Below, one piece after another: positions 4,235 through 25,322 of a stretch of DNA of 32,552 nt (position 1 is its first letter; every line of letters begins with the position of its first letter). The stretch lies in IMG/VR virus record IMGVR_UViG_3300006735_000115, positions 1 through 32,552 of that record. One strand, written 5' to 3'. The notes under the pieces were generated by a model, which was not told where the DNA came from, did not search any database, and was given only the letters and a program-made list of their open reading frames with translations. This DNA is from a virus. Lineage: Duplodnaviria; Caudoviricetes. The position numbers were made by a program, and so were the translations under genes.

Positions 4235-5113
4235 GTGAAGCAACGCTGGCAAGTCTCACAGACCTCTACCGGATGCTACCGCGTGGACCTCAATGCAAGT
4301 GGTCCTCAGTGGCGGCAGTCCTTCCTCCTCAGCTCAGATCGGCACCACGACAACGCTCACAGTGACTGGAACCTCGAGGCTGTTCACCTCGAGCAGGCTA
4401 GGGAGCGAGCGGCTGGAATCATCGACATCGGTGACCTCGCGTGTGCCATGCAGGGCAAGTGGGATCGGCGGGCTGACCTCAGCCAATGCAGGCCAGAGCA
4501 TCAACAGGGGAGATACCTCGACAGCTTGGTGGAAACGGCTGCGGAGTTCTATGAGCCGTGGTCAGACCTCTTTGTCCTCATGTCGCCAGGAAACCATGAG
4601 AAGTCAATCCTGAAGAGGCATGAGACTGACCTGACTGACAGGCTGGCTGAGCGATTCAGGGTGATGGGCTCGCAAGTGGTGACTGGTGCCTATGGCGGGT
4701 TCATCAGGTTCTCGGTCGCTCTACCCTGCGGGAAGTCCTTGTCTCGGGTCATGTACTACCACCACGGTCATGGCGGTGGAGGGTTGATGACCCACGGCGT
4801 ACTCAACACTCGACGCAAGCAGTCATACCTTCCGAACGCTGACATTGTCTGGTCGGGTCACACTCATGACTCATGGCAGGTCAGGCTTGTGAAGATGGGG
4901 TTGACCAGCGGTGGGGCCATCAGGCTTGATGATGTCCATCACGTTTCGACTCCAGGCTACAAGGATGAAATGACTTGTATGGATGGGTGGCATGTCGAGA
5001 GGGGAGGGCCACCCAAGCCGCTGGGGGCGGCGTGGCTTCATCTGTCGCTCGAGGACCGGCAGAAGCCCAACAGGCACCGACGCATTCGGATCGACATTGA
5101 GGAGGCCAGATGA
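4235..5113 (+). CDS. Calcineurin-like metallophosphoesterase
   Basis: DxH (SDRHHD), GD (IGDL), GNHE, HHGHG and GHTH motifs in canonical order. Confidence 0.9.
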   Translation: MKQRWQVSQTSTGCYRVDLNASGPQWRQSFLLSSDRHHDNAHSDWNLEAVHLEQARERAAGIIDIGDLACAMQGKWDRRADLSQCRPEHQQGRYLDSLVETAAEFYEPWSDLFVLMSPGNHEKSILKRHETDLTDRLAERFRVMGSQVVTGAYGGFIRFSVALPCGKSLSRVMYYHHGHGGGGLMTHGVLNTRRKQSYLPNADIVWSGHTHDSWQVRLVKMGLTSGGAIRLDDVHHVSTPGYKDEMTCMDGWHVERGGPPKPLGAAWLHLSLEDRQKPNRHRRIRIDIEEAR

Positions 5114-5388
5114 GTCGTGAGGTGCCTAGGGATGTGGCGATCGCCATGCGCGACTCGGTCGCCCAGCTCGTCGAAAACGGTGGAGCGGAGGCTGTGCTGA
5201 TCTGCTTCACCCGCCACAAGCGAGGGCAGACCGAAACCTTTGCTGTCCCCTATGGGAACCTGCATTGTGTTCGTGGTCTGGCTGAATATGCCTATGGCAA
5301 GATGTGCGAAGGCATTGACGAGGAAGAGCTAGATGATGATGATGACGGCGATGATGATGATGACAGCCAAGAAGGTGACCCAGAATGA
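5110..5388 (+). CDS. Hypothetical protein with poly-Asp tail
   Basis: ATGA-coupled at both ends, GGAGG RBS. Confidence 0.7.
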   Translation: MSREVPRDVAIAMRDSVAQLVENGGAEAVLICFTRHKRGQTETFAVPYGNLHCVRGLAEYAYGKMCEGIDEEELDDDDDGDDDDDSQEGDPE

Positions 5389-5732
5389 GTGAAGACGAAT
5401 ACAAGCGAAGCGAGCTCGGTCGGTTCGGGGCTGGAAACAAGGGAGGTCCTGGCCGCAAGTTAGGAACCAAGGTTCCCAGCATGAAGGCCGCACTTGAGCG
5501 AGCCATCATCGACACACTGCGAGAGGAGGGGGAAGATGCCAGATCTGTCTTGGACGCCTTGGCACAAACGGCTCTCCACCTTGCTAGAGAGGGTGACTTC
5601 AAGTTCTGGAAAGAGATCATGGATCGGATCGATGGGCCAGTGACGCAGAAGGTCGAGCAGGACCAGACGATCAAGGTCGAGCGAGTTCCAACGCGAGCCC
5701 TCGAAGAGGACCACGAAGATGGACAGGATTAG
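5385..5732 (+). CDS. terS: Putative terminase small subunit
   Basis: N-terminal GRFGAGNKGGPGR motif and C-terminal A..GD....KEIMDRIDG.V.QKVE typical of small terminase-like (DUF5681-type) proteins. Confidence 0.65.
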   Translation: MSEDEYKRSELGRFGAGNKGGPGRKLGTKVPSMKAALERAIIDTLREEGEDARSVLDALAQTALHLAREGDFKFWKEIMDRIDGPVTQKVEQDQTIKVERVPTRALEEDHEDGQD

Positions 5733-6725: not shown

Positions 6726-6949
6726 GCAACCTAGACACGCTGGCGTTCTACGCCGCCATCGCCAAGCATCTCTCTGGAATCTCGAGCAACATCACGGCCC
6801 TCGCTGATGTGTACAAGAACCTGTCTCCTAGGTCATCCCTAGACGAAGACCTGATTGATGTCTTGGCGTCTAAGGCTGACGAGATGAAGGCCGCTGCTCT
6901 TGCCCTGAAGTCGGTCGAATACGACCCTGAAGATACGGAGTCACCATGA
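6722..6949 (+). CDS. Hypothetical helical protein
   Basis: ATGA-coupled at both ends. Confidence 0.6.
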   Translation: MSNLDTLAFYAAIAKHLSGISSNITALADVYKNLSPRSSLDEDLIDVLASKADEMKAAALALKSVEYDPEDTESP

Positions 6950-7578
6950 TCAAATACCTCTCCGCTCTGCTTGTCTCGACGATCGTCCTAGCTGATGATC
7001 CTTGCAGTCCTCGCTTGGTTCCGATGGTCACCACGCGGATTCCTGTCTTTGATTCCGAAGGCGAGCCGACCGAGACACTTCAGACCATCTCAATCGCAGA
7101 AACGGACACAAGGAGCCTGATCGTTGACTACCTGACGCCGCAGGACACAAGCGTGGCTGGTCAGTTTTCAATGGTCGGCCAGATTGAGGCGGCCAACCTC
7201 TCAAGCGTGGCGAGGCGGATCAAATACAGGCAATCAATCAGGATTGACGAGGGCATGATGCCTATCTTCCAAGAGGGGTCTAGCCTGTGCTGGGATCCGG
7301 AAAAAAGGACGATCATCGCGGACTACCAGATGCCTGTCGGTCCAGGCGAAAACGTCACGCAAGAAATCACATGGACTGTCAACCTTCGCCTTGAAGGGCT
7401 GCTTTCGGATATCAATGGGGACGGATGGGTCGATGCGATTGACCAAGGGATTCTTCTCGGCGACTGGGGAAGTAGCAACCCGCGATCAGATCTCAACTTT
7501 GACGGGGTGGTCAACGGGGAGGACTTGGGAATCCTGTTCAGCCAGTGGTCTGAATCTTCTGACGATGAGGAGTCATGA
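6946..7578 (+). CDS. Secreted-type protein with C-terminal dockerin-like double Ca-binding repeat
   Basis: Signal-peptide-like MIKYLSALLVSTIVLA; DINGDGWVDAIDQGILLGDWG...DLNFDGVVNGEDLGILFSQW. Confidence 0.8.
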   Translation: MIKYLSALLVSTIVLADDPCSPRLVPMVTTRIPVFDSEGEPTETLQTISIAETDTRSLIVDYLTPQDTSVAGQFSMVGQIEAANLSSVARRIKYRQSIRIDEGMMPIFQEGSSLCWDPEKRTIIADYQMPVGPGENVTQEITWTVNLRLEGLLSDINGDGWVDAIDQGILLGDWGSSNPRSDLNFDGVVNGEDLGILFSQWSESSDDEES

Positions 7579-7719: not shown

Positions 7720-8904
7720 ATGAACATACAAGTTGCTCCTATCGAGGAGGCTCTGCATACGGGCCAGCTTCGTGTTCTTGGCGAGTCAGCTAGGTTCAAC
7801 GTCTTGGAGTGTGGCCGTCGATTCGGCAAGACGCACCTCGGCGTCCAGCTCGCTATGGAGAAGGCGATCGACGGCGATGAGGTTGGCTGGTTCGCTCCAA
7901 GCTATCGATACTTAGCGGATCCTTGGCGAGATCTTGAGCAATCCCTGAACAGGATCACCCATCGAATCGACCGTGTGGAGAAGAGGTTCGAGCTGATGAC
8001 TGGGGGCTCCATTGACTTCTGGAGCCTTGACTCGGTCGATGCAGGTCGTGGCCGTCGATATGACCGAGTCATCATCGACGAAGCTGGGATAGTTAAGGAC
8101 TTGGGGCCAGCTTGGCAGGAGACGATTCGCCCAACCCTTGCGGACAAACGGGGAGATGCTTGGTTCCTTGGCACGCCGAAGGGGCGGTCATTCTTCCATC
8201 GCTGCTTCGAGCGCGGGCAGATTGGTGACGAGGGCTGGAGGTCTTGGAGGCTTCCGACGACCTCGAACCCCACCATTCCCAAGTCCGAGATCGAGGCCGC
8301 GAAGCGTGAGTTGCCCCAGCATGTCTTTGACCAAGAGTTCATGGGCATCCCAGCCGACGACGGCGGCAACCCCTTCGGATTGGATTCGATCCAAGCCTGT
8401 ACCATCCCGCTGAGTACAGATCCGCCAAAGGCTTTCGGGATCGACTTGGCGAAGAGCGTGGACTGGACTGTGGTATGTGGCCTCGACCAAGATGGTAGGG
8501 TTTGCCTTTTGGAACGATGGCAATCTCCCTGGTCGGAAACGGAGATCAGGATCGAGAGATTGATCGGCGAGGCCCCTGTGCTGATTGACTCGACAGGTGT
8601 GGGTGACCCAATCGTCGAGGGCCTTCAGCGAAAGTCTCCAAGGATTGAAGGATTCAAGTTCTCGCAGACATCAAAGCAGCAGCTCATGGAGGGCTTGGCG
8701 TCGGCTTTTCAGACTAGGAGAGTCGGCATTCCAGACGGATGGCTTCGCACAGAATGTGAGACTTTCGAGTTTGAATATACGAGGACTGGGGTTCGCTATG
8801 AGGCTCCGTCAGGGATGCACGATGACGGAGTCTGTGCGTTGGCCCTCGCGGTGCGGTGTCTCGAGACGCTTGCAAAGTCCAACTTTGACTTCAGGATCAT
8901 CTGA
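7720..8904 (+). CDS. terL: Terminase large subunit
   Basis: Walker A GRRFGKT, Walker B VIIDEA, GTPKG coupling motif, nuclease GIDLAK...D and HDD motifs. Confidence 0.95.
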   Translation: MNIQVAPIEEALHTGQLRVLGESARFNVLECGRRFGKTHLGVQLAMEKAIDGDEVGWFAPSYRYLADPWRDLEQSLNRITHRIDRVEKRFELMTGGSIDFWSLDSVDAGRGRRYDRVIIDEAGIVKDLGPAWQETIRPTLADKRGDAWFLGTPKGRSFFHRCFERGQIGDEGWRSWRLPTTSNPTIPKSEIEAAKRELPQHVFDQEFMGIPADDGGNPFGLDSIQACTIPLSTDPPKAFGIDLAKSVDWTVVCGLDQDGRVCLLERWQSPWSETEIRIERLIGEAPVLIDSTGVGDPIVEGLQRKSPRIEGFKFSQTSKQQLMEGLASAFQTRRVGIPDGWLRTECETFEFEYTRTGVRYEAPSGMHDDGVCALALAVRCLETLAKSNFDFRII

Positions 8905-8906
8905 CT

Positions 8907-11900
8907 ATGCCGATCGGTGACTTGTTCGGACTTCTCCGACAAAAGAAGCAGACCAGCACAGACAAGTATCTCGCTTCGAGCGTGAACATTGTCAGCACTG
9001 GCGAGAAGGGGCAGCTTCGGCCCCCCTTCAGCCAGCAGCGCGGAATCAGCGCATTCCATTCTTGGGTATACGCTGCTGCAACAATCAACGCCAACGCTGT
9101 CGCCTCTGTCCCGCTGCGCCTTTACAAGAAGGCCGACAAACGGACCAGGCAAAAGACTCGTGGCGTCCCGCTTCGCACCAAGGCGTACCTGCTCGGAGAT
9201 GGCCCTGGCGACCAGCGGCCTTCAATGTCGGTGCTTCGCAAGGTCGCAGACTTTGGCGATGAAGTCGAAGAGATCACGGGTGACGACCCGATCCTCAACC
9301 TCTTGTCTACAGCCAACCCATATCTCAACGGCTTTGACCTGACGGTTCTTCGGATTCTGTACGGCGAGCTGACGGGAAATGCTTATCTGCATCCGATCAT
9401 TGACGACGCGACAGATCTGCCTTCTGAGCTTTGGCCTCTTGCTCCGAACTATGTTGAGGTGGTCCCGTGTGACGAAAACTTCGTCAAGGGGTATGTCTAC
9501 GGCATCGACACATCGAAGAAGCAGACCTTCGAGCCAGATGAAGTCATCCACTTTAAGCGCCCAAACCCTGGAAATTACTACTACGGGATGGGCAAAGTGG
9601 AAGCGGCTTTTGGTGCGGTCATGTCCAATGAGGCACTGCACCAGATGGACCTCTCGACCTTTGCCAACTCGGCTAGGCCCGACTACGCAGTGGTGGTGAA
9701 GGGAACGCCTACTGGTGACCAGCTTGACCGTTTCCAGAGCCAAGTCGAGGAGCGTCTGAAGGGGACTAGGAAAGACGGCAACTTCATCGCTGTCTCTGGT
9801 GATGTCCAGTTCACCCCTCTGAACTTCCCCCCCAAGGATCTGGCAGGTCGCGAGGATGTGGTCGAAGAGATTGCGGCAATCTTTGGCGTGCCTGTGACGA
9901 TGCTGAAAGCTAACGACCCGAACCTCGCAAGTGCCAAGGCGGGCTTTAGTCAGTGGCGTGAAGGTTCAGTCCTGCCCCTGTGCCGGATGGACGAACAGGA
10001 GCTCAACCAGACTCTGCTTCCATTGTTTGGTGCGGAAGATGACTACTTCCTAGCCTACGACAACCCCGTGCCGAAGGACGAAACCTTCGACCTTCAGCAG
10101 CGTCAAACGGCTGTAGCTGGTGGTTGGCGAACTCCAAACGAAGCGAGGCAGGAAGAGGGACGTGAACCAATTGAAGACGAGATGGCGGACAAGCTCCTCC
10201 ATGCTGGTCAGCCTCTTGGTGGAATGGGGGCTGGTGGAATCATGCCGCCCTTTGGTGGCGGACTGCCAGGTTTACCGGCTCCTCCTGTTGAAGAAGCCCA
10301 AGAAGCGACTCCAGAGCAGCCAGTGGCCGAAGGCACTCCGTCGCAGGATGGCACCACCGCCCCTGTTCCTGCTGATCCGACTGCAAACCTCAACGGTGCG
10401 CAGATTCAGAGTGTCATCGCCATCTTGGACGGTGTTGCTGCGGGAACCATTGCCCAAACTGCTGCTGTCGAGCTGATCATGGCGACAGGCGTGACTCGAG
10501 TGAGCGCGCAGCGAATGGTCGGTGACCAAGACGATGCCAAGCCAGAGGCTCAGGCCGAAGCGGAGATCGAGGAAGCCATCGAGCCGATGTCTGAAGAGCA
10601 GAAGTCGGCAGTGAACATGGCGACTGTGGCCGATGTCAGTATGGCTCTTCGGGGCGGATACCTGACCAAATGGGAAGCAACCAAGACCTTGCAAGCTGCG
10701 GGCATGACTCGCAAGCATGCGGAGCGACTTGTGAAGCTGGAGGTCAAGAAGGCTAACGTGCTGAGGACCGAAGGCGACCTGTACGAAACCAAGGAGGAAG
10801 CTGAGCGGATTGCTGAGATACTCGGATGCGAAGGTCACCACACGCACGATGTCAACGGTCGAACGATGTATATGCCATGCGGTGAAATGTCTGACTACAC
10901 CGAGCTGACTGGCGAAGAGCATTCAGGCGACGATGACCTAGACCTTGTCGATGCCAAGGCCGTGGCGGACATTGATCTCAAGCCGTCCGAGACTATGTCC
11001 GATCTTGCCGATCGTGGTCTCAAGCTACGGGAGGAACACGGCAGAGGCGGCACCGAGATCGGCGTTGCTCGAGCCAGAGACATCAAGAACCGAGACAACC
11101 TCTCGCCGGAAACGGTTGGCCGCATGGTCAACTTCTTCTCAAGGCATCGCGTCGATCTTGACGCACCAGCCGCGAAGCCAAGCCACAAGGAATATCCATC
11201 AGCGGGTGTCATTGCTTGGCTGCTTTGGGGCGGCGACCCAGCAGACCCTGAAGGCGGCGGACATGCTTGGGCAAAGGAAAAGCTGAGTCTGATCGAACGC
11301 GAACGCGACGGACAGAAGGGCGGTGGGGTCACTGGCCTGATCCCAAAAATCTGGGGCAGTCATGTGACTGCCAAGGCAAGAGCTGCTCTTGGAAGAGTTA
11401 TCCTTGAGAAGGCTGACGACTGTGGTACTGGTGCAGGCGGTTTCAAGCCAGGAAACGACTGTGCTGAAGGTCACGGGCGACCTCCAAAGCCCGAAAACAT
11501 TGGCGATCTTAAGGATTCCCTCAAAGACAAGTATCCACTTGAAAAGCTCTCGCTATACGAGAGAGGCGACCATATTGAGCTGATGAACATTGAAGTCGAA
11601 GACGACGCCCAAGGGCAAGGCGTCGGCACTGACGCAATGGATGAAATCAAGGACTACGCACAGGATGCGGGAAAGCCCATAGTTCTGACTGCGGAGGCAA
11701 GTTCTGGAAGCAGGGAGGACTTGAACAGGTTCTATGAATCTCTCGGTTTTGAATCCGTCGAGAGCGGAGGGAGTCGAGACTATTCCCTCCCCGCTCATAC
11801 GCACATCTGGAAACCAGAAGAAAGCAAGGACAAGCCGAAGACTGAGACGCCTGAGTTCAAGGAGTGGATCGGCCAATCAGTAGAACAAGACGACGGCAAG

Positions 11901-13802
11901 CCTCGAGTTTTGTATCACGGAACAGCGGGCGTGTTTGACGAGTTCTCTGAAGGTGTCACATGGGTCTCAGAGGAAGAGGACCACGCCCAACTGTATGCAG
12001 ACGCCGCCGAATCGATGAGCGGGAACCAAGGTGGTGTAATTCCCCTCTATGTACGATCAGAGCGGCCTGTCAAGGTTTCGGATCGACCGAAGAACGTGAA
12101 ATTGGACACGCTTGCCAACGAATTGCTGGCATCGGCTCGCAAGGACAAGAACACCTTCGACATCAAGGAAGCAAGGGAAAGCCTAGACAAGTTCCGACGA
12201 GGGTGGGAGTCGTCTGGTTCCGACGCAAAGCAGGAAAGACCAAGGCACGAATGGTGGTTCGACGAGGGACGAGCTAACGCTAACGAGAAGAACTTCGCCA
12301 AGCTGGTTCAGTCTCTCGGTTACGACTCAGTCGAATACTACGAGACGATTGGCGGGTATCGAGGGATGCCTGAGAGAAAGATTCGCACTGTTGGCGTCTT
12401 TGATTCCAATCAGCTCAAGTCTTCGAGTGACAATGATGGCAACTTCAGCCGCGACAGCGGAGACATCACCAAGTCAGCCGACAACTGCGGGACCGGAGCC
12501 GGTGGGTTCCAGGCTGGCAACGACTGCGCTGAGGGGCATGGCAGGCCAGAGGCTGGAACTGAAAAGGTCCGAACTGGAGAGGTGACGCAAGAAGAACGAG
12601 ATGCCTACGACAAGTTTGCCAAGCGGAATGAGGTTGACGACCAAGGCAGGACTTCGGCCAAAGCATGGAAAGACGGCGACGACTGGACAAGTCCCGACGG
12701 TTTGACCTATGCACACGACGAAACAAACGAGGAAATAGGCACGGGCGGAATGGGCCAGAGGCTTTTTGACTTTTGCGATCAAGGCGAAGAGATGATTCTC
12801 CGTCCTGATGCGAACAATGATATTGACCTTGGTTTCAACCAGGAAATCATGGACAACTTTGAGACAGACGCCAGAGATCTTTCTGACGAAGACACAAAGC
12901 TGATCGAGGGATTCACTGCCCACGAATACCAAAACATCAATTCAGTCATGAGGAAGGGGAGCGTCCCTTGGGTCGCACAGACAGAGGAGGCTTTCGCTCG
13001 GGTGGAAGAATTGGCTTGGGATGCCGGAGCGTTGTCGTCAAGTTTTGACATCGATCAAATGAGTGATTCTGAGGTTGTTGAGTTCGCGACGGTCAATCAG
13101 GAGTTCACCGAAAAAATCCACGAGGCGTCTAAGGATTTGAGGACGGGCGTTGACACGATCGAAACTCAGGCCATAGGTTCAAGTTTTGTATACACGGCAG
13201 GCAATCGGTATCGAGGGATGGGGGACGCTAAGGAGTACGCCAGTGGGATCGAAGATTCTGCATATGCCTTGAGTTTGGAAAACGCGAAAAACAATCCAAG
13301 CGAATATCGGGAATCTCTCAGCAATCTTCTCTACAACATGGAAGAGTTTGATCGCCCTTTCAGTTTGGGCATCGAAGAAATCGAAAGTGGATATCAAGAT
13401 GCTGGCAGAAGGATTGACAACTTGGTTGACGCGCCGCTCCGTGCAGATGGAAAGCCGATGACTGTGTATCGAGCGAACAGCACAAAGGGAGTCGGAAGCA
13501 AGCGTCTATATGACGCAATCAACTCCGGAGTCAAAACCTACAAGCTGGACGGCGTTGCATCTGCCTCTACCGATGGGATGTTCGCATCAGATTGGAGTCA
13601 CGGAGACCATCAGGTGGTCATGAGGATGAAGGTAACGAATGGATTATTCGTCGGTCCTATTTCCTCAAACCCCAGAGAGTCCGAGGTGATTCTTCCAAGA
13701 GGAACCGAGTTTAAGATCAACAGCGTTGAAAGGCTCAGCTCGCAAAGCCTTGACGAAAGTCATGGGACCGTCATCGTTGTTGACATGGAGGCAATCCAAT
13801 GA
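8907..13802 (+). CDS. Portal protein (HK97 type) fused to a DUF3721-like domain, an unnamed head-associated domain, a GNAT, an ART-PolyVal-like domain and a VIP2-type ADP-ribosyltransferase
   Basis: Portal motifs in the first ~430 aa (WVYAA, LTGNAY, EVIHFK, YYGMG, TPNEAR); GCEGHH..YMPC; AWLLWGGD; QGQGVG..FYESLGF; YHGT..VFDSNQLKS; VYR..SAS..ESEVILPRG. Confidence 0.9.
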   Translation: MPIGDLFGLLRQKKQTSTDKYLASSVNIVSTGEKGQLRPPFSQQRGISAFHSWVYAAATINANAVASVPLRLYKKADKRTRQKTRGVPLRTKAYLLGDGPGDQRPSMSVLRKVADFGDEVEEITGDDPILNLLSTANPYLNGFDLTVLRILYGELTGNAYLHPIIDDATDLPSELWPLAPNYVEVVPCDENFVKGYVYGIDTSKKQTFEPDEVIHFKRPNPGNYYYGMGKVEAAFGAVMSNEALHQMDLSTFANSARPDYAVVVKGTPTGDQLDRFQSQVEERLKGTRKDGNFIAVSGDVQFTPLNFPPKDLAGREDVVEEIAAIFGVPVTMLKANDPNLASAKAGFSQWREGSVLPLCRMDEQELNQTLLPLFGAEDDYFLAYDNPVPKDETFDLQQRQTAVAGGWRTPNEARQEEGREPIEDEMADKLLHAGQPLGGMGAGGIMPPFGGGLPGLPAPPVEEAQEATPEQPVAEGTPSQDGTTAPVPADPTANLNGAQIQSVIAILDGVAAGTIAQTAAVELIMATGVTRVSAQRMVGDQDDAKPEAQAEAEIEEAIEPMSEEQKSAVNMATVADVSMALRGGYLTKWEATKTLQAAGMTRKHAERLVKLEVKKANVLRTEGDLYETKEEAERIAEILGCEGHHTHDVNGRTMYMPCGEMSDYTELTGEEHSGDDDLDLVDAKAVADIDLKPSETMSDLADRGLKLREEHGRGGTEIGVARARDIKNRDNLSPETVGRMVNFFSRHRVDLDAPAAKPSHKEYPSAGVIAWLLWGGDPADPEGGGHAWAKEKLSLIERERDGQKGGGVTGLIPKIWGSHVTAKARAALGRVILEKADDCGTGAGGFKPGNDCAEGHGRPPKPENIGDLKDSLKDKYPLEKLSLYERGDHIELMNIEVEDDAQGQGVGTDAMDEIKDYAQDAGKPIVLTAEASSGSREDLNRFYESLGFESVESGGSRDYSLPAHTHIWKPEESKDKPKTETPEFKEWIGQSVEQDDGKPRVLYHGTAGVFDEFSEGVTWVSEEEDHAQLYADAAESMSGNQGGVIPLYVRSERPVKVSDRPKNVKLDTLANELLASARKDKNTFDIKEARESLDKFRRGWESSGSDAKQERPRHEWWFDEGRANANEKNFAKLVQSLGYDSVEYYETIGGYRGMPERKIRTVGVFDSNQLKSSSDNDGNFSRDSGDITKSADNCGTGAGGFQAGNDCAEGHGRPEAGTEKVRTGEVTQEERDAYDKFAKRNEVDDQGRTSAKAWKDGDDWTSPDGLTYAHDETNEEIGTGGMGQRLFDFCDQGEEMILRPDANNDIDLGFNQEIMDNFETDARDLSDEDTKLIEGFTAHEYQNINSVMRKGSVPWVAQTEEAFARVEELAWDAGALSSSFDIDQMSDSEVVEFATVNQEFTEKIHEASKDLRTGVDTIETQAIGSSFVYTAGNRYRGMGDAKEYASGIEDSAYALSLENAKNNPSEYRESLSNLLYNMEEFDRPFSLGIEEIESGYQDAGRRIDNLVDAPLRADGKPMTVYRANSTKGVGSKRLYDAINSGVKTYKLDGVASASTDGMFASDWSHGDHQVVMRMKVTNGLFVGPISSNPRESEVILPRGTEFKINSVERLSSQSLDESHGTVIVVDMEAIQ
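11409..11483 (+). repeat. Coding repeat copy 1 (KADDCGTGAGGFKPGNDCAEGHGRP)
   Basis: Precedes the GNAT domain. Confidence 0.95.
12471..12548 (+). repeat. Coding repeat copy 2 (KSADNCGTGAGGFQAGNDCAEGHGRP)
   Basis: Precedes the first VIP2-type ART block. Confidence 0.95.
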
Positions 13803-15109
13803 GCAGCAGATTCGACGAAGACATGCCAATCATTGCGGTTGATGACAGAGAGTTCAAGGCGACAGACGACACCTCAAAAAAGTCAAAGGCTGACAACTGC
13901 GGGACCGGAGCTGGTGGCTTTCAGCCTGGCAATGACTGCGCTGAGGGGCATGGGCGTCCTCCTTCTGATCGAAGAAGTGGGCCGGTCACCCGCGAAGAAC
14001 AAATGGCATTCTCCGATTTCTCGATTGGAATGCGACGGACTTGGAATCAAAACCGAAACGACCCAAGTCAAATCACAAGAGACGCAGACGGCAACGAGTA
14101 CGAAGAGCATGAGGTCGAGAGCGGTGACAGTATTGGGGGCTTCGACACGCGAATGGGTGGACAGGAGCTGATGTTAGAGATTCAAGGCGATTTGACGCCT
14201 CGAGAAAAGGAAGACCTGAATGCTTGGTCAAGAAACGGGGAGACAGTCGTTGACTTTTTTCGTGAAGGAGAGAGCCGTCTTGACAGAGCAGACAAGAGTG
14301 CGAAAGAGTTCCAAGATGTCCTTGATGATGCTTTCGATGACAGAGTTCTGAATGGAATCGATTCAAAAACCGACGCTGTGAATGTTGCTCAAAACGTCAT
14401 ATATGCGTCGAACATGCTTGACGGGCATCTTCGTACAGCGGACAGCGTCCTAAAAGGTCAGATTCCCAAGACCGAAACTGGGGATTTAGTGATTGCTGAT
14501 GATCGAATCACTGAAGTTCTGGAAAGCGTAAAAGAATACGACCAAAAGACCAGGGACTTGAGAAGACTGATCGACCAGCCCGCAAATACGACGACCGAAG
14601 AAATCGTCAAGAGGGTTCGGGAACTCAAGAAGATGCAGCCTGAAGCACTTGGACCTTTGAAAAGTTTTTTCAAAGAAGTGCATGATCTTGAAGGTGACTA
14701 TATCGATCGCTTGTCCAATAGCCTGGACAAGCCAATTCGGTCGGACGGAAAACCCGTGACGGTCTGGCGCGGCGTACGAGTGACCAACGCTGGAGCGAAG
14801 AGGCTATATGACGACATCATCAAGGGAGACGACCGCTTCGAGTTCACTTCTGTCAACTCTGCGAGCCTTTCGTCTAGCGTTGCGGCAGATTTTTCGAGAG
14901 CCAACTCATCCTCTGAGGGACCAGCAATCGTCTTCAAGATTACGGCAAGGAAAGGCGTAGCCATCGGAACGCACTCGCAGTACGAAGAAGAGTCAGAGAT
15001 TCTGCTGCCGCCTCGGTCAAACGCCCGCATCACAAGCAAAAAATTGGTGTTCAACGAAGAGGCTGAAAAGCCTGTCCTGTATGTCGAAATGGAGATGGAA
15101 GATGAATGA
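13799..15109 (+). CDS. VIP2/Alt-type mono-ADP-ribosyltransferase with N-terminal CGTGAGG repeat
   Basis: R-S-E triad: VTVWRG, NSASL, EESEILLP; paralogous to the C-terminus of the portal fusion. Confidence 0.85.
   Translation: MSSRFDEDMPIIAVDDREFKATDDTSKKSKADNCGTGAGGFQPGNDCAEGHGRPPSDRRSGPVTREEQMAFSDFSIGMRRTWNQNRNDPSQITRDADGNEYEEHEVESGDSIGGFDTRMGGQELMLEIQGDLTPREKEDLNAWSRNGETVVDFFREGESRLDRADKSAKEFQDVLDDAFDDRVLNGIDSKTDAVNVAQNVIYASNMLDGHLRTADSVLKGQIPKTETGDLVIADDRITEVLESVKEYDQKTRDLRRLIDQPANTTTEEIVKRVRELKKMQPEALGPLKSFFKEVHDLEGDYIDRLSNSLDKPIRSDGKPVTVWRGVRVTNAGAKRLYDDIIKGDDRFEFTSVNSASLSSSVAADFSRANSSSEGPAIVFKITARKGVAIGTHSQYEEESEILLPPRSNARITSKKLVFNEEAEKPVLYVEMEMEDE
13886..13960 (+). repeat. Coding repeat copy 3 (KADNCGTGAGGFQPGNDCAEGHGRP)
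   Basis: Shares two 20-nt identical blocks with copy 2 (GACAACTGCGGGACCGGAGC; GACTGCGCTGAGGGGCATGG). Confidence 0.95.
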
Positions 15110-16481
15110 CAAGCCTGAGCCAAGGGACGACTTCCCAAACTCCTTCGATATGATCCCGATCTACAAGGCCGAGGGTGACAGCGATTCCAGCACACCCGCA
15201 AAGCCAAGCGAGCGAGTCACGGGTTCAGACCAGAACCCCGAAGGCAGTGCTTCCGGTTCGCGTGGTGGCATCGAGATATCTGCCGCCCAGGCCAAAGCAC
15301 TTGAGAAAAAGCGTGACGACCACAACGAAAAGCATGGCGACAAAGAGGGGAAGAAGGTCAACCTTGGAATGCTGAAGGCGGTGTATCGCCGTGGAGCTGG
15401 TGCTTTCTCCACCTCGCACCGGCCAGGCATGACCAGACAGCAGTGGTCTATGGCTCGAGTCAATGCGTTCCTGTACCTCGTACGCAATGGCAAGCCAGAA
15501 AATGCGAAGTACACGACCGACTACGACCTGCTGCCGAAAGGCCATCCCAAGAAGTCGGACAAGAAATCAGGCGAGGAGCCAGTTGCCAAGACCTACGAAT
15601 GGCCGGAGGAGACTAGGAAGCACCGGCTGATGATCGAGGGTTTGGATGATGACCTCATCAGGTACAAGGCCGAGATCCCTGCCGACGATGGTGGCGATGC
15701 TGACCAAAACATCCGAAAGCGTGAGCGTCGAACGCCAGCTCAGAGAATTGAGTCAGCAGCCAGGCAAGCCCAGGAGGATGTCGCCAGGGTCATCCAGGCC
15801 GAGGTCAAGGTCCGGTCCAAGACCATTGAGCTGACCTCCAAGCTCAGGGCGAAGGAGATGCTCAGAAAGCTGGTGGGTCCAAAGAAAAGCCTCCTGGACA
15901 GTCTTGTGAAGGCATACCAGGACGCTGTCCAGGGCGGCGGTGTCGCGGGTCTCAGTCGAATCAACGACCTTCTTCTTCGTGAAGGAATCCGCAACGTCGC
16001 AGCCGTTGACGTTCGCAAGATCCTGTCCGAATCAATCAAGGAGCGAGCTGCATTCATTGCAGAGTCGTTGATTGATGAATCAGTCGCAAACTTTGCCAAT
16101 TCGGTCGAAGTTGGTGAAAGCGTTGACCAGATCGCTAGGCGAATCCAAACGTCTCGAGACCTGAGCCCCTCTCGTGCCAGGACTATCGCCAGGACCGAGT
16201 CGGCAGCGTCGTATCACGACGGCCAGATCGCCGCATGGAAAGAAGTCGGATATGTCACCAAGAAGCACTTCTTGGCGGCTGGCGGAGCTTGTGAGTTTTG
16301 CGAAGCAGTTGAAAACGAGTATGGGATGGGAAAGAAGTCGATCCCGATTGACCAGCCTTTCGTGAAGGCCGGTTCGACAATAGTTTCACAGAGCGGTAGA
16401 ACTCTCACCGCCGGTATAGATATGCAGGGAACAGTACATCCAAATTGCAGATGTGACTTTCTAGCAGCGGAGCCCGAATGA
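15102..16481 (+). CDS. MuF / SPP1 gp7-like minor head protein with an extra N-terminal domain
   Basis: RARTIARTE, CxxC and HPNCRC MuF motifs; N-terminal VYRRGAGAFSTSHRPG..QQW..ARVNAF domain. Confidence 0.85.
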   Translation: MNDKPEPRDDFPNSFDMIPIYKAEGDSDSSTPAKPSERVTGSDQNPEGSASGSRGGIEISAAQAKALEKKRDDHNEKHGDKEGKKVNLGMLKAVYRRGAGAFSTSHRPGMTRQQWSMARVNAFLYLVRNGKPENAKYTTDYDLLPKGHPKKSDKKSGEEPVAKTYEWPEETRKHRLMIEGLDDDLIRYKAEIPADDGGDADQNIRKRERRTPAQRIESAARQAQEDVARVIQAEVKVRSKTIELTSKLRAKEMLRKLVGPKKSLLDSLVKAYQDAVQGGGVAGLSRINDLLLREGIRNVAAVDVRKILSESIKERAAFIAESLIDESVANFANSVEVGESVDQIARRIQTSRDLSPSRARTIARTESAASYHDGQIAAWKEVGYVTKKHFLAAGGACEFCEAVENEYGMGKKSIPIDQPFVKAGSTIVSQSGRTLTAGIDMQGTVHPNCRCDFLAAEPE

Positions 16482-17077
16482 TGCAGACCAAGACCCTTGA
16501 CGCCAGCCTTGAGTCGGACGGGATCAAGGTTGATGCCGTGATCTCGACCGAGAGCATTGATCGGGACGGCGAAGTCCTGATTGCTCAAGGCATGGATTCG
16601 AGTGAGTACGACGACAATCCTGTCGTCTTCTATAACCACGATTATGCTCAGCCGATCGGACAGGTCACGAACCTGCGAAGAGGCAAGGACAAGGTTGAGG
16701 CCACCATCAAGTTCGCCAAGAGGCCCGACGATTTCCAAGGCTCATATTTCCCTGAGTTCGTCGAATCCTTGGTCCAGCAAGGCATCGTCAAAGGCATCAG
16801 CGTCGGGTTTGTGCCAAAGCCTGGCGGCGTCCGAAAGGCGTCAGCCAAGGATCGAGAATCCTACGGCGACGATGTCCAGCAGGTCTATTCACAGTGGAAG
16901 CTGCTTGAGGTCTCGGTGGCCCCTCTCCCCGCTAACGGTCGAGCTTTGGTCTCTGCTGTGCGGAAGGGGTTAGTTGACCAAGCTGAAGCCAAGAAGTGGA
17001 TAGGCTGCGAAGCCAGCAGTGCGAAGCACGTGATTGAGGTCCAAGTTCCAAAGCGTGGCCTTATGGACAAGTTTTGA
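16478..17077 (+). CDS. Prohead maturation protease (HK97 family)
   Basis: DRDGE, NPVVFYNHD..PIG, GISVGF and LLEVSVAPLPAN motifs. Confidence 0.93.
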   Translation: MMQTKTLDASLESDGIKVDAVISTESIDRDGEVLIAQGMDSSEYDDNPVVFYNHDYAQPIGQVTNLRRGKDKVEATIKFAKRPDDFQGSYFPEFVESLVQQGIVKGISVGFVPKPGGVRKASAKDRESYGDDVQQVYSQWKLLEVSVAPLPANGRALVSAVRKGLVDQAEAKKWIGCEASSAKHVIEVQVPKRGLMDKF

Positions 17078-17188: not shown

Positions 17189-18625
17189 ATGCGAATCGTG
17201 ACTCTCGCGGAGGCCCAAGCGGACCTCCAGAACATTGCCAACCAAGTCGGCTCCAGTCGTTTCATCAAGGCCAAGGGCCTTTACCTCGACAAGGTCATGG
17301 TCACTGCCGAAGACGGCAAGCCCATGTCTGCTGAAGATCTTGAGGTCCATGTGGCCCCCAAGGCGATGCAGGAAGAAGAGGAAGAAATGAAGACGATGGA
17401 GGAAGACGAGGACAAGGAAGACAAGATGGAGGAAGAGGAGGAAGAGGAAAAGCGTACATACAAGGGACTGAGCCACCGCAAGGCTCGACAAAAGGCTTTT
17501 GCTGCCCCGATGGTTGGAAAGGGCCGGAACCACTACAGTGGCCGTGTCAAGAACTTCAAGGACAACCACAACGGTGACGCTGTGGACAAGGCCCTCGCGT
17601 TCGGTCACTGGCTCAACGCACAGATGGGGCACCGCAAGAGCCTCGCCTTCTGCGAGCGGAATGACCTGCACCTCAAGGCGCACACCGAAGGCGTCAACAG
17701 TGCTGGCGGCTTCCTCGTCCCTGAAGTCTTTGAGACTGAACTGATCAGCCTTCGGGAAGAGTTCGGCGTGGCGCGAGCCAACTGCCGGATTCGTCCGATG
17801 ACCACTGACGTTCACCGCATCCCGCGACGGTCGGCGACCCTGACCCCGTACTTTGTCGGTGAGGCCAGTGCGATCACTGAAAGCACCCAGACCTTTGAGC
17901 AGGTCTCGCTCGTCGCTAAGAAGCTCGCCTGTATCACGACCATCTCGTCCGAGCTTGATGAGGATGCGTTCCTCAACATCAGTGATGACGTTGCGGGTGA
18001 AATCGCCTACGCCTTTGCCAAGCGCGAAGACGAGTGCCTGTTCCTTGGTGACGGCACCTCGACCTACGGCGGAATTGTTGGTCTTGCCGACTCGATGGGT
18101 ACGGCTGGCTCTGTTGATACCACCGAACTCAACACCACCGTCGGTGATGTCGCGTCGGCCGACGCCATCGCTGACCTCACCAAGCTCATGGCTCTGCTTC
18201 CGCAGTACGCCGACAACGCTCGCACTGCCTGGTACATGCACAAGTCGGTGTTCCACGCCTACGCCGAACGCGCTTCTCGCCTGCAAGGTGGCAACGACTT
18301 CCAGCAGACCCTTGGTGGCAAGTATGTCCCGACTCTGTTCGGATATCCGGTCCACTTCTCGCAGGTTCTCCCGAACAGCACTGACCACACCGACGAAAAG
18401 AAGCTGCTTTACTTCGGCGACCTTTCCCTGGCTGCCTCGTTCGGCGATCGTCGTTCGACCACCATCCAGGTCTCGGAACATGCCACGATCAACAGCGGCA
18501 ACGTCTTCGAGCAGGACGAGATCGCCATCCGTGGAACCGAGCGGTTCGATATCAACTGTCACGACACTGGTGATGGCAACGACGCCGGACCGATTGTGGC
18601 CCTCCTCATCAAGGACGAAAGCTGA
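17189..18625 (+). CDS. Major capsid protein (HK97 fold) with N-terminal acidic scaffold/delta region
   Basis: KAHTEGVNSAGGFLVPE, KKLA...SSEL, LFGDG-like, TLFGYPV and YFGDLS motifs; lies after the protease. Confidence 0.95.
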   Translation: MRIVTLAEAQADLQNIANQVGSSRFIKAKGLYLDKVMVTAEDGKPMSAEDLEVHVAPKAMQEEEEEMKTMEEDEDKEDKMEEEEEEEKRTYKGLSHRKARQKAFAAPMVGKGRNHYSGRVKNFKDNHNGDAVDKALAFGHWLNAQMGHRKSLAFCERNDLHLKAHTEGVNSAGGFLVPEVFETELISLREEFGVARANCRIRPMTTDVHRIPRRSATLTPYFVGEASAITESTQTFEQVSLVAKKLACITTISSELDEDAFLNISDDVAGEIAYAFAKREDECLFLGDGTSTYGGIVGLADSMGTAGSVDTTELNTTVGDVASADAIADLTKLMALLPQYADNARTAWYMHKSVFHAYAERASRLQGGNDFQQTLGGKYVPTLFGYPVHFSQVLPNSTDHTDEKKLLYFGDLSLAASFGDRRSTTIQVSEHATINSGNVFEQDEIAIRGTERFDINCHDTGDGNDAGPIVALLIKDES

Positions 18626-22327: not shown

Positions 22328-22759
22328 ATGGGAACGACAGTCGCAATTGGATCTGATGGAAGTTGCACGCTGCCATCTGGATATGCCGCGCAACTCAACA
22401 CTTGGTCTGCCAGCGTGACTAGGCAGACGAGCGTCGTGACGGGGTTCGGCGATGTAGGCACCTCAAGGGTTGCCTCGAAAATCTTTGACATCACAGGATC
22501 GGCGGGTGGTTTTCCGTCCTATGACGCTTCCAACACAAGCCCGATTTCAACCTTCGCAGGGGCAAGCGGGCCAAATGGTGGCGAAGTCGTTCTCCTTGTG
22601 AATGGGAGCGATGGCGGTAGTGACGAGTGTTCTTTCACTTTCAACGCGGTATTCAGTTCGATCGCTCTTGCATCCACGCAAGACGGCGAGGCGACGGTCG
22701 CCTTCAACTTTGAGCTTGCTGCGAGTGCGGCTCCCGTGTTCACTTGGTTTGAAACTTGA
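22328..22759 (+). CDS. Putative tail tube protein (paralogue A)
   Basis: Position after terminator; GSDG..., W, DITGSAGG and FNFE beta-rich layout. Confidence 0.7.
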   Translation: MGTTVAIGSDGSCTLPSGYAAQLNTWSASVTRQTSVVTGFGDVGTSRVASKIFDITGSAGGFPSYDASNTSPISTFAGASGPNGGEVVLLVNGSDGGSDECSFTFNAVFSSIALASTQDGEATVAFNFELAASAAPVFTWFET

Positions 22760-22774
22760 TTCTGGAGGCGACTG

Positions 22775-23227
22775 ATGCCTGAGACTGTAGCAGTAGGATC
22801 AGATGGTAGTGCATCGATGGGGACTGGCTTCAACGCAGCCCTCAACACTTGGAGTGCCACGCTGACGCGATCGACGCATGTCATCACTCAGTTCGCGCAG
22901 ACCAGCCTTGCGCACAATCGGCGGGCTTCTGGCGTCCTTGACATCACAGGATCGGCTGGCGGTTTCCCCTTGTATGACGACGGTTCCGACACCGATGGTG
23001 ACAACGCCATCTCTCCGATCAAGCACAGCAGCACGGCCTTGGATGATCGTGGTGGCGGCACTGTGGTCCTGTATGTGGTCGAGCCGTCTGCGACGCGCTG
23101 CTCGCTGACTTTTGCCGCAGTGTTCAGTTCGTTCGCGTTTGGCGTCAGCCAAGACGGTGATTCGACGGTACAGTTCAACTTTGAAATGAATCAGGCAACT
23201 GCGCCCATCGTGGCTTGGGATACTTGA
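22775..23227 (+). CDS. Putative tail tube protein (paralogue B)
   Basis: Full-length similarity to 22328-22759; GGAGG RBS. Confidence 0.7.
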   Translation: MPETVAVGSDGSASMGTGFNAALNTWSATLTRSTHVITQFAQTSLAHNRRASGVLDITGSAGGFPLYDDGSDTDGDNAISPIKHSSTALDDRGGGTVVLYVVEPSATRCSLTFAAVFSSFAFGVSQDGDSTVQFNFEMNQATAPIVAWDT

Positions 23228-23894: not shown

Positions 23895-24079
23895 AGGAAG
23901 CTGCTTGGTTGGCTCGCCTGTTGCCAGGCGTCGGCAACCCGATGAATCTCCCGATTGACGAGTTCAACGCTTATCTCCAGAAGTTGCCTGGAATCTTGGA
24001 AGCTGAACATGGTAAGTCATCAGAAGCTCACGACAACCGTGCCTTCGTTGAGGCGGAGATGAGAAAATTGCATGGCTAG
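23861..24079 (+). CDS. -1 frameshift extension of the tail chaperone (gpT equivalent); not in the ORF track
   Basis: Slippery heptamer GGGAAAG at 23861-23867; the -1 frame is open (GRAKQRDLVEEAAWLARLLPGVGNPMNLPIDEF...KLHG) to TAG 24077-24079, overlapping the TMP start. Confidence 0.85.
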   Translation, partial: GKGRAKQRDLVEEAAWLARLLPGVGNPMNLPIDEFNAYLQKLPGILEAEHGKSSEAHDNRAFVEAEMRKLHG

Positions 24080-25322
24080 TGATTACAACATCATCGTCGA
24101 GGTCATGGCTCAGACCGAGCAGTTCGTGAAGAACCTGCGCGCTGTCGAGTCAGAGATCCAAAGCACCGCCGACAGGTCTGTCGCGATCGTTGAGAAAGCT
24201 AGTCAGCGAGTCAACACAATCACCGCACGATCGACGGAAACGATGATCGCAGAGCAGCGGGCAATTTCAGCCGAGACCAACGCTTCCGTACAGCGTGACT
24301 TGGCGAACATGGGCAAGGCGATTGACAAGCAGAAGCCAGCAATCGCTCGCAAGGGTGCAGAAATGGGTACGGCCCTCATGCGTCAGATGGGCAACCGGAT
24401 CGCGGCGGGGGCTTCTGTTGGTTTGATACTTGGGGCAATCGACGGCGCAATGCAAGAAGCCATTGCCAAAATGAAGGGTCACGGCGAGGACTCGGGGGTC
24501 GGCTTCCTTGCGGGGTTTGGCGAGTTCGTGACCAACAACTTCCGAAAGCTACCAATCTTCGGCAGCCTGATGGACACGGTTGGCGGCGCGTTCGGTGCGT
24601 TTGGATTTGAAGCGCAACAGGCCGAGAGAGCCAAGCAGCAAGAACGATCAGCGCAATTGTCTGGTAGGGCCAGGAAGCAGGAGATGCTTCGCTTGGCAAT
24701 CTTGGAAGCACAAACTGCGGAATACGAAGCGGGACACGAAGCGACCAGGAGAGCGGCGCAAGAAGTCGAGAGGATGATGCGGGACGCCGCTGCTGGTGCC
24801 AAGATGATCGCGGACAATCGTCGCGACATGGTGGACAACGTACGAAGCGCACAAGTCAGACTCTTCAGGATTGAAAACGAAGGCAACGACGAAGCAATCA
24901 AGGCGATGGAACGAGAGCTGGAGCTCTTCGAGCAAAACCTTGACTTTGAGCGCCGAATCACAGAGGCAAGGCAAGAAGGTCGTAACTTGTTAGCGGAGGA
25001 ACTCGAGCAACACCGCGAAGCGTTGGAGCTGCTGACGCAGCAAGCACACGCTGCGGAAGATCGCAACGAAAAGCTCAGGGAAGCGAGGGAGGTTGGCGAT
25101 GCCTATCTCGAGCTTGAGGAAGCTATCGCTGACGCGCAGCTCAAGGCCAGCCAAGCAACTTCGAGCTTCTCCACTGCTGGCGGCAGCTTTGTGACAAAGG
25201 CTTCTGTTGGAGGCTTGAACGAGCAGAAGATGATGAACAAGATTTCACAGAAGTCTCAGGACATTTTGCTTGAGATCGAAGGGAACACACGAAACATCTT
25301 TTCTGGGGTAGACCTTGCCTGA
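24072..25322 (+). CDS. Tape measure protein (short, 416 aa)
   Basis: Follows G/GT; helical Ala/Glu/Gln-rich with Gly-rich hydrophobic segments; N-terminal I.VEV.A.T.QF. Confidence 0.8.
   Translation: MASDYNIIVEVMAQTEQFVKNLRAVESEIQSTADRSVAIVEKASQRVNTITARSTETMIAEQRAISAETNASVQRDLANMGKAIDKQKPAIARKGAEMGTALMRQMGNRIAAGASVGLILGAIDGAMQEAIAKMKGHGEDSGVGFLAGFGEFVTNNFRKLPIFGSLMDTVGGAFGAFGFEAQQAERAKQQERSAQLSGRARKQEMLRLAILEAQTAEYEAGHEATRRAAQEVERMMRDAAAGAKMIADNRRDMVDNVRSAQVRLFRIENEGNDEAIKAMERELELFEQNLDFERRITEARQEGRNLLAEELEQHREALELLTQQAHAAEDRNEKLREAREVGDAYLELEEAIADAQLKASQATSSFSTAGGSFVTKASVGGLNEQKMMNKISQKSQDILLEIEGNTRNIFSGVDLA

What the first reader, a model, noticed from the sequence alone, without database searches (positions are those of the whole stretch)
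8907..16481. Portal-fused, multi-enzyme effector cassette (GNAT + three ADP-ribosyltransferase-type domains) between portal and MuF
Seen: a 1631-aa ORF whose first ~430 aa are an HK97 portal. It continues in frame into small head-associated domains, a GNAT (~11530-11815), a YHGT-type ART-PolyVal-like domain (~11840-12470) and an R-S-E ART (core ~13456-13799). A second R-S-E ART gene and then MuF follow, all with overlapping stop/start codons. Established: portals are normally ~400-550 aa dodecamers; MuF-fused toxins and phage polyvalent proteins carry such domains; T4 Alt is a virion-delivered ART. Inference: the effectors are tethered to the portal rather than to MuF, so each prohead could receive up to 12 copies of an acetylation/ADP-ribosylation toolkit for injection (host takeover or anti-defence).
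Basis: partly seen in the sequence, partly recalled or inferred. Interest (0 to 1): 0.92.

Follow-up and report, generated by a model that had tools for sequence, protein, structure and literature searches.

The report
Phage portal carrying cut-apart enzyme cargo
A marine phage encodes its portal protein as one 1,631-residue chain that also holds an acetyltransferase-like and two ADP-ribosyltransferase-like domains, with each cargo unit starting at the same short two-cysteine peptide just after a likely cutting site for the head protease, so the enzymes are probably cut free inside the head and would then be injected to act on the host.

Summary
One 1,631-aa frame joins an HK97 portal, small head modules, an AcrVA5-like GNAT, an ART-PolyVal domain and an R-S-E ART; a second R-S-E ART gene, MuF, protease and capsid follow. 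Other assemblies carry the same kind of fusion.

Portal-fused effectors are already in print, and lasting tethering is unlikely. The same K|A sits at the predicted capsid maturation site. The residue before the tag follows the lineage: K in 32 of 33 contexts in this clade, R in 48 of 55 other HK97-type, L/F in 29 of 29 in one lambda-portal group. Close relatives swap cargo right at the tag.

Best reading: a polyprotein that the prohead protease likely cuts into free enzymes inside the head. No cut, packaging or activity is measured. The scan found this kind of tag before on other genomes; my literature searches found no description. New here: tag variants nearly match the N-terminal peptide of the clade's small-terminase-like protein, a lead to DNA binding.

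The parts
5385..5732 (+). Small-terminase-like protein (DUF5681) whose N-terminal R-x-x-x-G-R-F-G-x-G-N peptide resembles variants of the cargo tag
   Evidence: PF18932 E 1.9e-4, below cut-off; motif comparison; the terminase role rests on its position and on recalled knowledge of DUF5681
7720..8904 (+). Terminase large subunit
   Evidence: phrog_2 E 2.5e-38
8907..13802 (+). ORF1, portal polyprotein, 1,631 aa, 178.6 kDa
8907..10199 (+). HK97-type portal domain (aa 1-431)
   Evidence: PF04860 E 4e-49; TIGR01537 118.2 bits, cut-off 112.05
10200..10604 (+). Gly/Pro-rich linker and a small unit, up to the first K|S after the portal (K566); predicted end of the mature portal
   Evidence: sequence; the cut is inferred
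10605..11411 (+). Three small non-enzymatic units, each starting after K|S or K|A: aa 567-615, a DUF3721-like unit (616-684) and an unnamed widespread phage unit (685-835, phrog_2859 region)
11409..11485 (+). Candidate cut site K835|A and tag copy 1 (Cys to Cys 11421-11462)
   Evidence: repeat family D1
11496..11813 (+). GNAT acetyltransferase domain, closest solved structure AcrVA5
   Evidence: PF00583 E 1.3e-6; 6IUF by sequence E 4.9e-5, Foldseek E 6e-4, Z 10.0, rmsd 2.8, 93 aligned
11889..12446 (+). ART-PolyVal domain; H1004 and D1140 present, T1018 where the clade's strand-2 tyrosine is expected
   Evidence: PF18760 E 1.2e-14; alignment A2; diphtheria-toxin/PARP-like fold Z 6-7
12471..12550 (+). 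Candidate cut site K1189|S and tag copy 2 (Cys to Cys 12486-12527)
12474..13799 (+). Cargo unit 2: Alt/VIP2-type R-S-E ART with a long helical insert; R1522, S1552, E1591/E1593
   Evidence: (pLDDT 86)
13799..15109 (+). ORF2: 30-residue leader, K30|A, tag copy 3 (13898-13939), second R-S-E ART (R324, S354, E398/E400)
15102..16481 (+). ORF3: leader, K|A, DUF5824 unit, K|A, MuF at the C-terminus with nothing fused behind it (longest frame starts at 15081)
   Evidence: PF19141 E 2e-9, PF04233 E 4e-7
16478..17077 (+). HK97-family (S78) prohead protease, the proposed processing enzyme; H54 and S108 in the expected motifs
   Evidence: PF04586 E 1e-8; TIGR01543 E 2e-10, below cut-off; residue positions, catalytic motifs recalled
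17189..18625 (+). Major capsid protein with N-terminal scaffold region and predicted maturation site K163|A (17675-17680)
   Evidence: PF05065 from aa 173; the HK97 site is K103/S104 (PMC10275583)

Best explanation
The portal gene encodes a chain of units that each start after a lysine site like the capsid's predicted maturation site, so the phage's own prohead protease likely cuts the chain inside the prohead into a short portal, small peptides and two free enzyme units, which would then leave with the DNA and modify host targets. Steps: (1) shown: one frame, the domains, K|A or K|S at unit starts, a tag at the head of each enzyme unit, units swapped between relatives at the tag; (2) inferred: the portal ring carries up to 12 copies of the chain into the prohead, while ORF2 and ORF3 enter through their N-terminal leaders, like T4 capsid-targeting sequences; (3) inferred: cleavage at K566, K615, K684, K835 and K1189 frees a 39-kDa GNAT + ART-PolyVal unit and a 49-kDa R-S-E ART, and cleavage at K30 of ORF2 frees a 45-kDa ART, each with the tag at its new N-terminus; (4) inferred, weakest: the tag holds the freed unit on the packaged DNA so that it is ejected with it, and the enzymes acetylate and ADP-ribosylate host defence or transcription proteins early in infection.
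For: Site at unit starts, in 101 loci with portals at least 50% identical: K[AS] precedes the unnamed unit in 38 of 39 distinct contexts (background 0.084), DUF5824 in 12 of 12 (0.172) and the tag in 23 of 33 (0.084); with the wider class K[ASDNG], chosen after looking, the tag count is 33 of 33 (0.135). R[AS] gives 0 of 39, 3 of 12 and 1 of 33. A set found by the portal alone agrees: 31 of 120 listed homologues are tagged, and 27 of 27 distinct contexts have K. Match to the capsid site: 16 of 16 capsids with K have K before the tag; 26 of 33 with R have R. By portal family: K 32 of 33, R 48 of 55, L or F 29 of 29 (last count read from the list). Smaller groups show L-x-E, A and A-N, and in three of them the same pattern is enriched in the locus's own protease or scaffold gene. 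Modularity: L144 is 91% identical over aa 1-859 and then changes cargo right behind the tag; L141 carries this window's GNAT + ART-PolyVal unit at 92% identity as its second unit. Tag copies differ almost only at synonymous sites: 16 of 17, 7 of 8 and 15 of 17 changed codons. Precedent: T4 gp21 and SPN3US gp245 cut capsid and internal proteins, Alt and (SPN3US) the portal among them, at one short motif. HK97 cuts at K103/S104. R-S-E residues are invariant in 20 aligned sequences.
Against: No cleavage, packaging, ejection or enzyme activity is measured, and the capsid site is itself predicted. K|A or K|S is short and also occurs inside domains (6 of 12 such sites in ORF1 lie within the portal or the enzyme units), so the site list rests on position. 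The K-versus-R match is one switch on the capsid tree, so the Fisher values overstate it, and the contexts are related by descent. Seven of 33 R capsids do not match (4 K, 3 neither). DUF3721 has K[AS] upstream in only 11 of 22 contexts. The enrichment patterns were chosen by eye, and the E, A and N groups hold 3, 1 and 2 contexts. No K[AS] separates GNAT from ART-PolyVal. The ART-PolyVal lacks the clade's strand-2 tyrosine and may be inactive or altered. What the tag binds is unknown.
Confidence: 0.65

Rival explanations
1. The chain is cut as proposed, but the enzymes act in the cell that builds the phage, late in infection, for example against defences that sense portal or terminase, and are not injected.
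For: PMC9503650 names this alternative for head-linked ARTs (passage). The genes are late genes. The tail looks non-contractile with a 416-aa tape-measure-like protein (read by eye), so 39-49 kDa folded units would have to unfold to pass.
Against: The sites follow the prohead protease, which acts inside the prohead. T4 ejects Alt, and foreign proteins fused to its targeting sequence, into the host.
Confidence: 0.15
2. One reading: the enzymes stay covalently tethered to the portal, up to 12 per head.
For: The frame is continuous. By rough arithmetic 12 copies of the extension would fill only a few percent of a T=7 head (inference). No cut is shown.
Against: Lineage-matched sites at unit starts. 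The same units occur as separate genes behind the same site and tag. A tethered domain cannot leave the capsid.
Confidence: 0.1
3. The tag is only a recombination boundary or neutral linker that eases cassette shuffling, with no binding role.
For: Similarity to L144 and L141 breaks at the tag. Both models leave the tag unstructured (pLDDT under 50).
Against: The three copies are only 66-77% alike in DNA to the reference copy while the protein is kept. Both cysteines stay in variants that change the residues between them, though the search patterns required them. The tag crosses portal families.
Confidence: 0.08
4. The long frame is a misassembly or a read-through artefact.
For: No single contig from the laid runs spans the whole stretch and no raw reads were laid.
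Against: Overlapping contigs from two studies, L054, P0014 and P0015. The shortest of 53 complete relatives is already 589 aa.
Confidence: 0.02

Closest known systems
Phage polyvalent proteins and portal- or MuF-fused effectors (Iyer et al. 2017, PMC5512222; PMC9503650)
   Same: Several unrelated conflict domains in one head-linked chain. GNAT beside the H-Y-D-type ART, as that paper describes. Fusions of PBECR, 2H, InPase, Nudix and ART to portal are mentioned there.
   Different: No metallopeptidase domain is found here; processing is assigned to the separate prohead protease. R-S-E ARTs, which that paper says are absent from genuine polyvalent proteins, sit in the same chain. The passages read mention no repeated site-plus-tag junction. 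The paper's FTP supplement was not seen.
T4 Alt and internal proteins with capsid-targeting sequences cut by gp21; SPN3US gp245 substrates (PMC9026906, PMC10052503)
   Same: Head-packaged R-S-E ART. One short protease motif shared by capsid and cargo. A removable N-terminal leader, as predicted for ORF2 and ORF3.
   Different: T4 cargo proteins are separate gene products cut after Glu. Here the cargo is largely on the portal chain, the protease is of the HK97 family with predicted Lys sites, and a conserved tag lies behind the cut.
MuF polymorphic toxins (Jamet et al. 2017, PMC5576092)
   Same: Variable enzyme cassettes, ARTs included, in the portal-MuF region.
   Different: The enzymes lie in front of MuF, on the portal chain or on their own gene. 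MuF ends its protein, and the next gene is the protease, not a small immunity gene (that feature is recalled).
Enzymatic anti-CRISPR proteins AcrVA5 (acetyltransferase) and AcrIF11 (ART) (PMC13131331)
   Same: The GNAT's best sequence and fold match is AcrVA5. The ART-PolyVal model also aligns to 6KYF, AcrIF11 (Z 6.7, rmsd 4.3, 121 aligned).
   Different: Identity is 28-29% and 20%. These Acr proteins are small free proteins. No target is known here, and the AcrIF11 match is tied with diphtheria-toxin and PARP folds.

Membership tests
HK97-family portal | Score above the TIGR01537 / PF04860 cut-off, between terminase and protease genes | tested here: met
Phage polyvalent proteins | Two or more unrelated conflict domains in one chain | tested here: met
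   GNAT, ART-PolyVal, R-S-E ART
Phage polyvalent proteins | Encoded with a portal-terminase packaging system | tested here: met
Phage polyvalent proteins | Packaged and injected with the DNA | not testable with these tools
   needs virion proteomics
ART-PolyVal (Tox-ART-HYD2 clade) | Profile match above cut-off and diphtheria-toxin/PARP-like fold | tested here: met
   55.7 bits vs 31.2; Z 6-7, middling, model region about pLDDT 60-85
ART-PolyVal (Tox-ART-HYD2 clade) | H-Y-D active-site triad (PMC5512222 section 9) | tested here: not met
   H1004 and D1140 present; T1018 aligns with the tyrosine of several relatives
Alt/VIP2 R-S-E ART | R, S and E-x-E in the catalytic strands | tested here: met
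   ORF1 R1522, S1552, E1591/E1593; ORF2 R324, S354, E398/E400; R, S and the second E invariant in 20 sequences
Alt/VIP2 R-S-E ART | Profile or fold match | tested here: met
   ORF1 PF03496 above cut-off; profile finds solved R-S-E ARTs down to E 4e-15; model matches viral ARTs. ORF2 alone is just below the Pfam cut-off.
Alt/VIP2 R-S-E ART | ADP-ribosylation of host RNA polymerase or other proteins | not testable with these tools
   needs an NAD+ transfer assay
AcrVA5-like GNAT | Minimal GNAT fold closest to AcrVA5 | tested here: met
   Z 10.0, rmsd 2.8, 93 aligned, 28% identity
AcrVA5-like GNAT | Acetylates Cas12a or Cas2 | not testable with these tools
   host and target unknown
MuF polymorphic toxin | MuF domain with a C-terminal toxin extension | tested here: not met
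   MuF match ends at aa 460 of 466
Prohead-protease-processed internal proteins (T4 type) | Cargo shares a short motif with the capsid maturation site, and a protease gene is present | tested here: met
   sequence only; capsid site predicted
Prohead-protease-processed internal proteins (T4 type) | Cleavage shown in virions | not testable with these tools
   no isolate: best annotated phage portals are under 30% identical
DUF5681 small-terminase-type peptide (for the tag) | Detectable homology of the tag to the DUF5681 N-terminal motif | tested here: inconclusive
   Variants share 10 of 11 residues with a relative's motif, and the nearest Atlas cluster is 19% DUF5681 at score 0.75, a lead only. 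The tag profile does not rank these proteins among its top 45 non-tag hits, and none of 70 tags matches PF18932.

The most novel reading that the evidence does not exclude
Tailed phages of several portal families share a portable loading cassette: the lineage's own head-protease site, then a cysteine-closed peptide derived from the small-terminase N-terminal motif, then any enzyme. The portal carries the chain into the prohead, the protease frees the units, and the tag clips each enzyme onto the packaged genome so that it is injected with the DNA. That would be an undescribed general signal for protein delivery by phages.
Probability: 0.2. Interest if true: 0.85.

Novelty: new variant of a known kind. 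Interest (0 to 1): 0.6.

Why it matters
How small HK97-type phages load and release injected enzymes is largely unknown outside T4 and the giant phages. This locus gives exact predictions: five cut positions in the portal chain, the masses of the products, and a 14-residue tag whose role can be tested by point mutation. If right, proteins annotated as 'portal' in many uncultured phages hide swappable anti-host enzymes. The tag would then be a search handle for new anti-defence proteins: most tagged units have no Pfam match (26 of 88 had one). It would also offer a way to load proteins into phage heads.

Tried and rejected
MuF-toxin membership was rejected: MuF is C-terminal with nothing behind it. 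Misassembly was rejected. The Fisher test on capsid clusters (P 8e-9, 4e-4 and 0.055 at 90, 70 and 55% clustering) was set aside because the tree shows one K/R switch.

The tag has no Pfam family: 1 of 70 members had a chance-level hit. It has no match among solved structures at E up to 10. In annotated phage records it gave only two weak tape-measure hits. The ART-PolyVal alignment found no solved relative by sequence. A third head motif that I recalled (P-R-V-P type) had no match in the loci.

The host was not identified: prophage portals beside the tag are about 30% identical or less, and no phylum-wide genome search was run. The tag's prevalence among 1.84 billion protein representatives was not measured. 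The unit-2 model was compared with predicted viral structures only, not with solved ones. No complex was predicted, since the open pairs are enzyme with substrate or peptide with DNA.

Literature searches without a description of the tag or of protease-cut portal chains: 0 papers for the motif letters; judged from listings.
Full report
1. Observation. The window is a 32,552-base virus record with terminase, portal, MuF, protease, capsid and head-tail genes in HK97 order. The two runs that hold most of the stretch are marine metagenomes. ORF1 (8907-13802, 1,631 aa) has a portal domain, a DUF3721-like unit, a GNAT, an ART-PolyVal domain and an R-S-E ART. ORF2 (13799-15109) is a second R-S-E ART. 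ORF3 has DUF5824 and MuF. Contigs from two studies cover the frame in pieces without gaps, and a diverged contig keeps it from 11466 to 15790; no piece spans everything and no raw reads were laid. Two other proteins, 90-91% identical in the portal, also run from portal to ART.

2. The enzymes. The GNAT's nearest solved relative is 6IUF by sequence (E 4.9e-5), by Foldseek and among 48,161 chains (Z 10.0, rmsd 2.8, 93 aligned). 6IUF is the anti-CRISPR acetyltransferase AcrVA5. The ART-PolyVal part of the model (mean pLDDT 70 for the whole unit) aligns at Z 6-7 to a cyanophage pre-ejectosome protein, diphtheria-toxin homologues, AcrIF11 and PARPs. These are tied, middling scores. The clade's triad is H-Y-D; this copy has H1004, T1018 and D1140, so its activity is uncertain. 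The last unit folds well (pLDDT 86), matches viral ARTs and keeps R, S and E, invariant in 20 aligned sequences. ORF2 keeps them too. No activity or target is shown.

3. A 77-nt repeat occurs three times. It codes for K-[A/S], two to four residues, and a 14-residue tag, C-G-T-G-A-G-G-F-x-x-G-N-x-C, at the head of both enzyme units of ORF1 and of ORF2. The copies differ almost only at synonymous sites. An exact pattern found 144 stretches in 28 of 64 parts of the viral collection, about 280 estimated in all. In 36 of 36 loci that I picked from the first 75 for context, the tagged frame is fused to or lies beside portal, MuF, protease or capsid genes (read from the table). Of 88 tagged units scanned, 26 had a Pfam match, mostly ART, ART-PolyVal, GNAT, PARP-like or zeta-toxin domains. 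The 8 matches in prokaryote genomes are titled Singulisphaera (2), Pirellulaceae, Isosphaeraceae, Lentisphaerae, Opitutaceae, an archaeon and Janthinobacterium. A planctomycete-type host is plausible but not shown.

4. The clade's default is a portal chain. Among 53 distinct complete portal frames at least 50% identical, the shortest is 589 aa, 30 include MuF and 17 carry a tag (some loci were fetched by the tag, so that share is inflated). Among homologues found by the portal alone, 31 of the 120 listed (of 376 found) are tagged. The window's three genes read as this chain with enzyme units inserted and split into separate frames. Units move as blocks. L144 is 91% identical over aa 1-859 and changes cargo right behind the tag. 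L141 holds this window's GNAT + ART-PolyVal unit as its second unit at 92% identity.

5. The sites follow the protease lineage. HK97 removes its scaffold at K103/S104. The matching position of this capsid reads K163|A. In 101 related loci, K[AS] precedes the unnamed unit in 38 of 39 contexts, DUF5824 in 12 of 12, the tag in 23 of 33 and DUF3721 in 11 of 22, against backgrounds of 0.08-0.17; R[AS] is not enriched. Of 81 loci with both capsid site and tag, 49 distinct capsids were treed. All 16 with K have K before the tag; 26 of 33 with R have R, 4 have K and 3 neither. The K capsids form one branch, so this is one evolutionary event. Other portal families add separate cases: L or F in 29 of 29 contexts in one lambda-portal group, and small groups with L-x-E, A and A-N. 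The small units switch their upstream residue in the same way (read by eye). In L222, whose portal I read as Mu-type by eye, units start after A-N and carry three different head motifs, this tag among them. These patterns were chosen after looking, so their shuffle values are optimistic.

6. Mechanism. Shown: frame, domains, sites, tag, swaps. Inferred: the portal ring brings the chain into the prohead (that the portal C-terminus faces inward is recalled). The protease at 16478-17077 cuts it into a 61-kDa portal, 5-16 kDa pieces and 39 and 49 kDa enzyme units, and ORF2 gives a 45-kDa unit. Stand-alone tagged genes have short leaders, often with a hydrophobic stretch, before the site, like T4 capsid-targeting sequences. 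T4 and SPN3US proteases cut capsid and internal proteins at one motif, and T4 ejects Alt. Late action in the producer cell remains a rival.

7. What the tag may do. Both models leave it unstructured. Variants read C-G-R-D-E-G-G-R-F-G-x-G-N-x-C, 10 of 11 inner residues like the N-terminal motif of a relative's DUF5681 small-terminase-like protein; the window's own copy is at 5385-5732. Ten of 11 distinct non-tag frames with the core G-[RGTKQ]-F-x-x-G-N are such proteins, while shuffles give 1.2. The Atlas's nearest cluster to the tag is partly DUF5681, at a score that is a lead only. Against this, the tag profile does not retrieve these proteins and no tag matches PF18932. DNA binding is my preferred guess; it rests on the recalled role of small terminases and is untested.

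8. Known and new. Portal-fused effectors, ARTs among them, are stated in PMC5512222 (passages and section 9 read; FTP supplement not seen, and it may list such architectures) and in PMC9503650 (passages). PMC5576092, PMC10052503, PMC9026906, PMC13131331 and PMC10275583 were read as passages only; no supplements were opened. The search for the motif letters returned 0 papers. Searches listed none that describes the tag or protease-cut portal chains, judged from titles and abstract starts; the library lacks most subscription papers. This scan's earlier notes describe two-cysteine tags behind probable cut sites on other genomes. My reading was on record before I saw them, their letters are hidden, and they are not counted as support. 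A look-up for the link to small terminase returned nothing.

9. Verdict. The feature is real. With the cut sites and tag it is a new variant of head-cargo systems, joining polyvalent-type fusion to T4-type processing in a small HK97-type phage. Interest 0.6. All steps after the sequence are inferred.

Noticed in passing
window 6946-7578: Gene before the terminase with a dockerin-like repeat (PF00404, E 3.7e-4, below cut-off). Such repeats are recalled as common in Phycisphaerae; a relative's portal chain (P0079) also lists PF00404.
   Followed up: no
window 10959-11411: Unnamed unit (phrog_2859 region) found 176 times in the fetched loci, on portal, protease and cargo chains of several portal families, with no Pfam family. 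Its role is unknown.
   Followed up: partly
L222:4392-16041: Two very long head-region proteins (2,411 and over 1,420 aa) in a contig titled as an archaeal MAG. Units start after A-N and carry three different head motifs; they include ART-PolyVal copies and, by eye, a topoisomerase-like domain.
   Followed up: partly
L007, L013, L022, L029, L044, L058, L066, L068: A group whose tag is preceded by glycine and often lacks the lineage's arginine site, in a gene between protease and capsid. It is the main exception to the site rule.
   Followed up: no
L002, L017, L036, L042, L065, L072 (capsid region): Two adjacent genes both match the capsid family PF05065, one weakly and one strongly.
   Followed up: no
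window 22328-23227: Two similar tandem genes that look like tail-tube paralogues, followed by a short (416 aa) tape-measure-like gene at 24072-25322; no family matches.
   Followed up: no
window 17189-17680: The capsid scaffold region has an acidic run with a threefold 30-nt repeat and 7 K[AS] sites against 2.7 in shuffles, as expected if it is cut into pieces.
   Followed up: partly
window 11889-12446 vs PDB 9k3a: The best fold match of the ART-PolyVal model is a region of a cyanophage A4 pre-ejectosome protein (Z 7.2, rmsd 3.9, 129 aligned), which hints at an ART-like domain in a solved ejection protein.
   Followed up: no
window 4235-5113 and 1815-2267: A metallophosphoesterase-like gene and a small P-loop kinase-like gene upstream of the packaging genes.
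   Followed up: no
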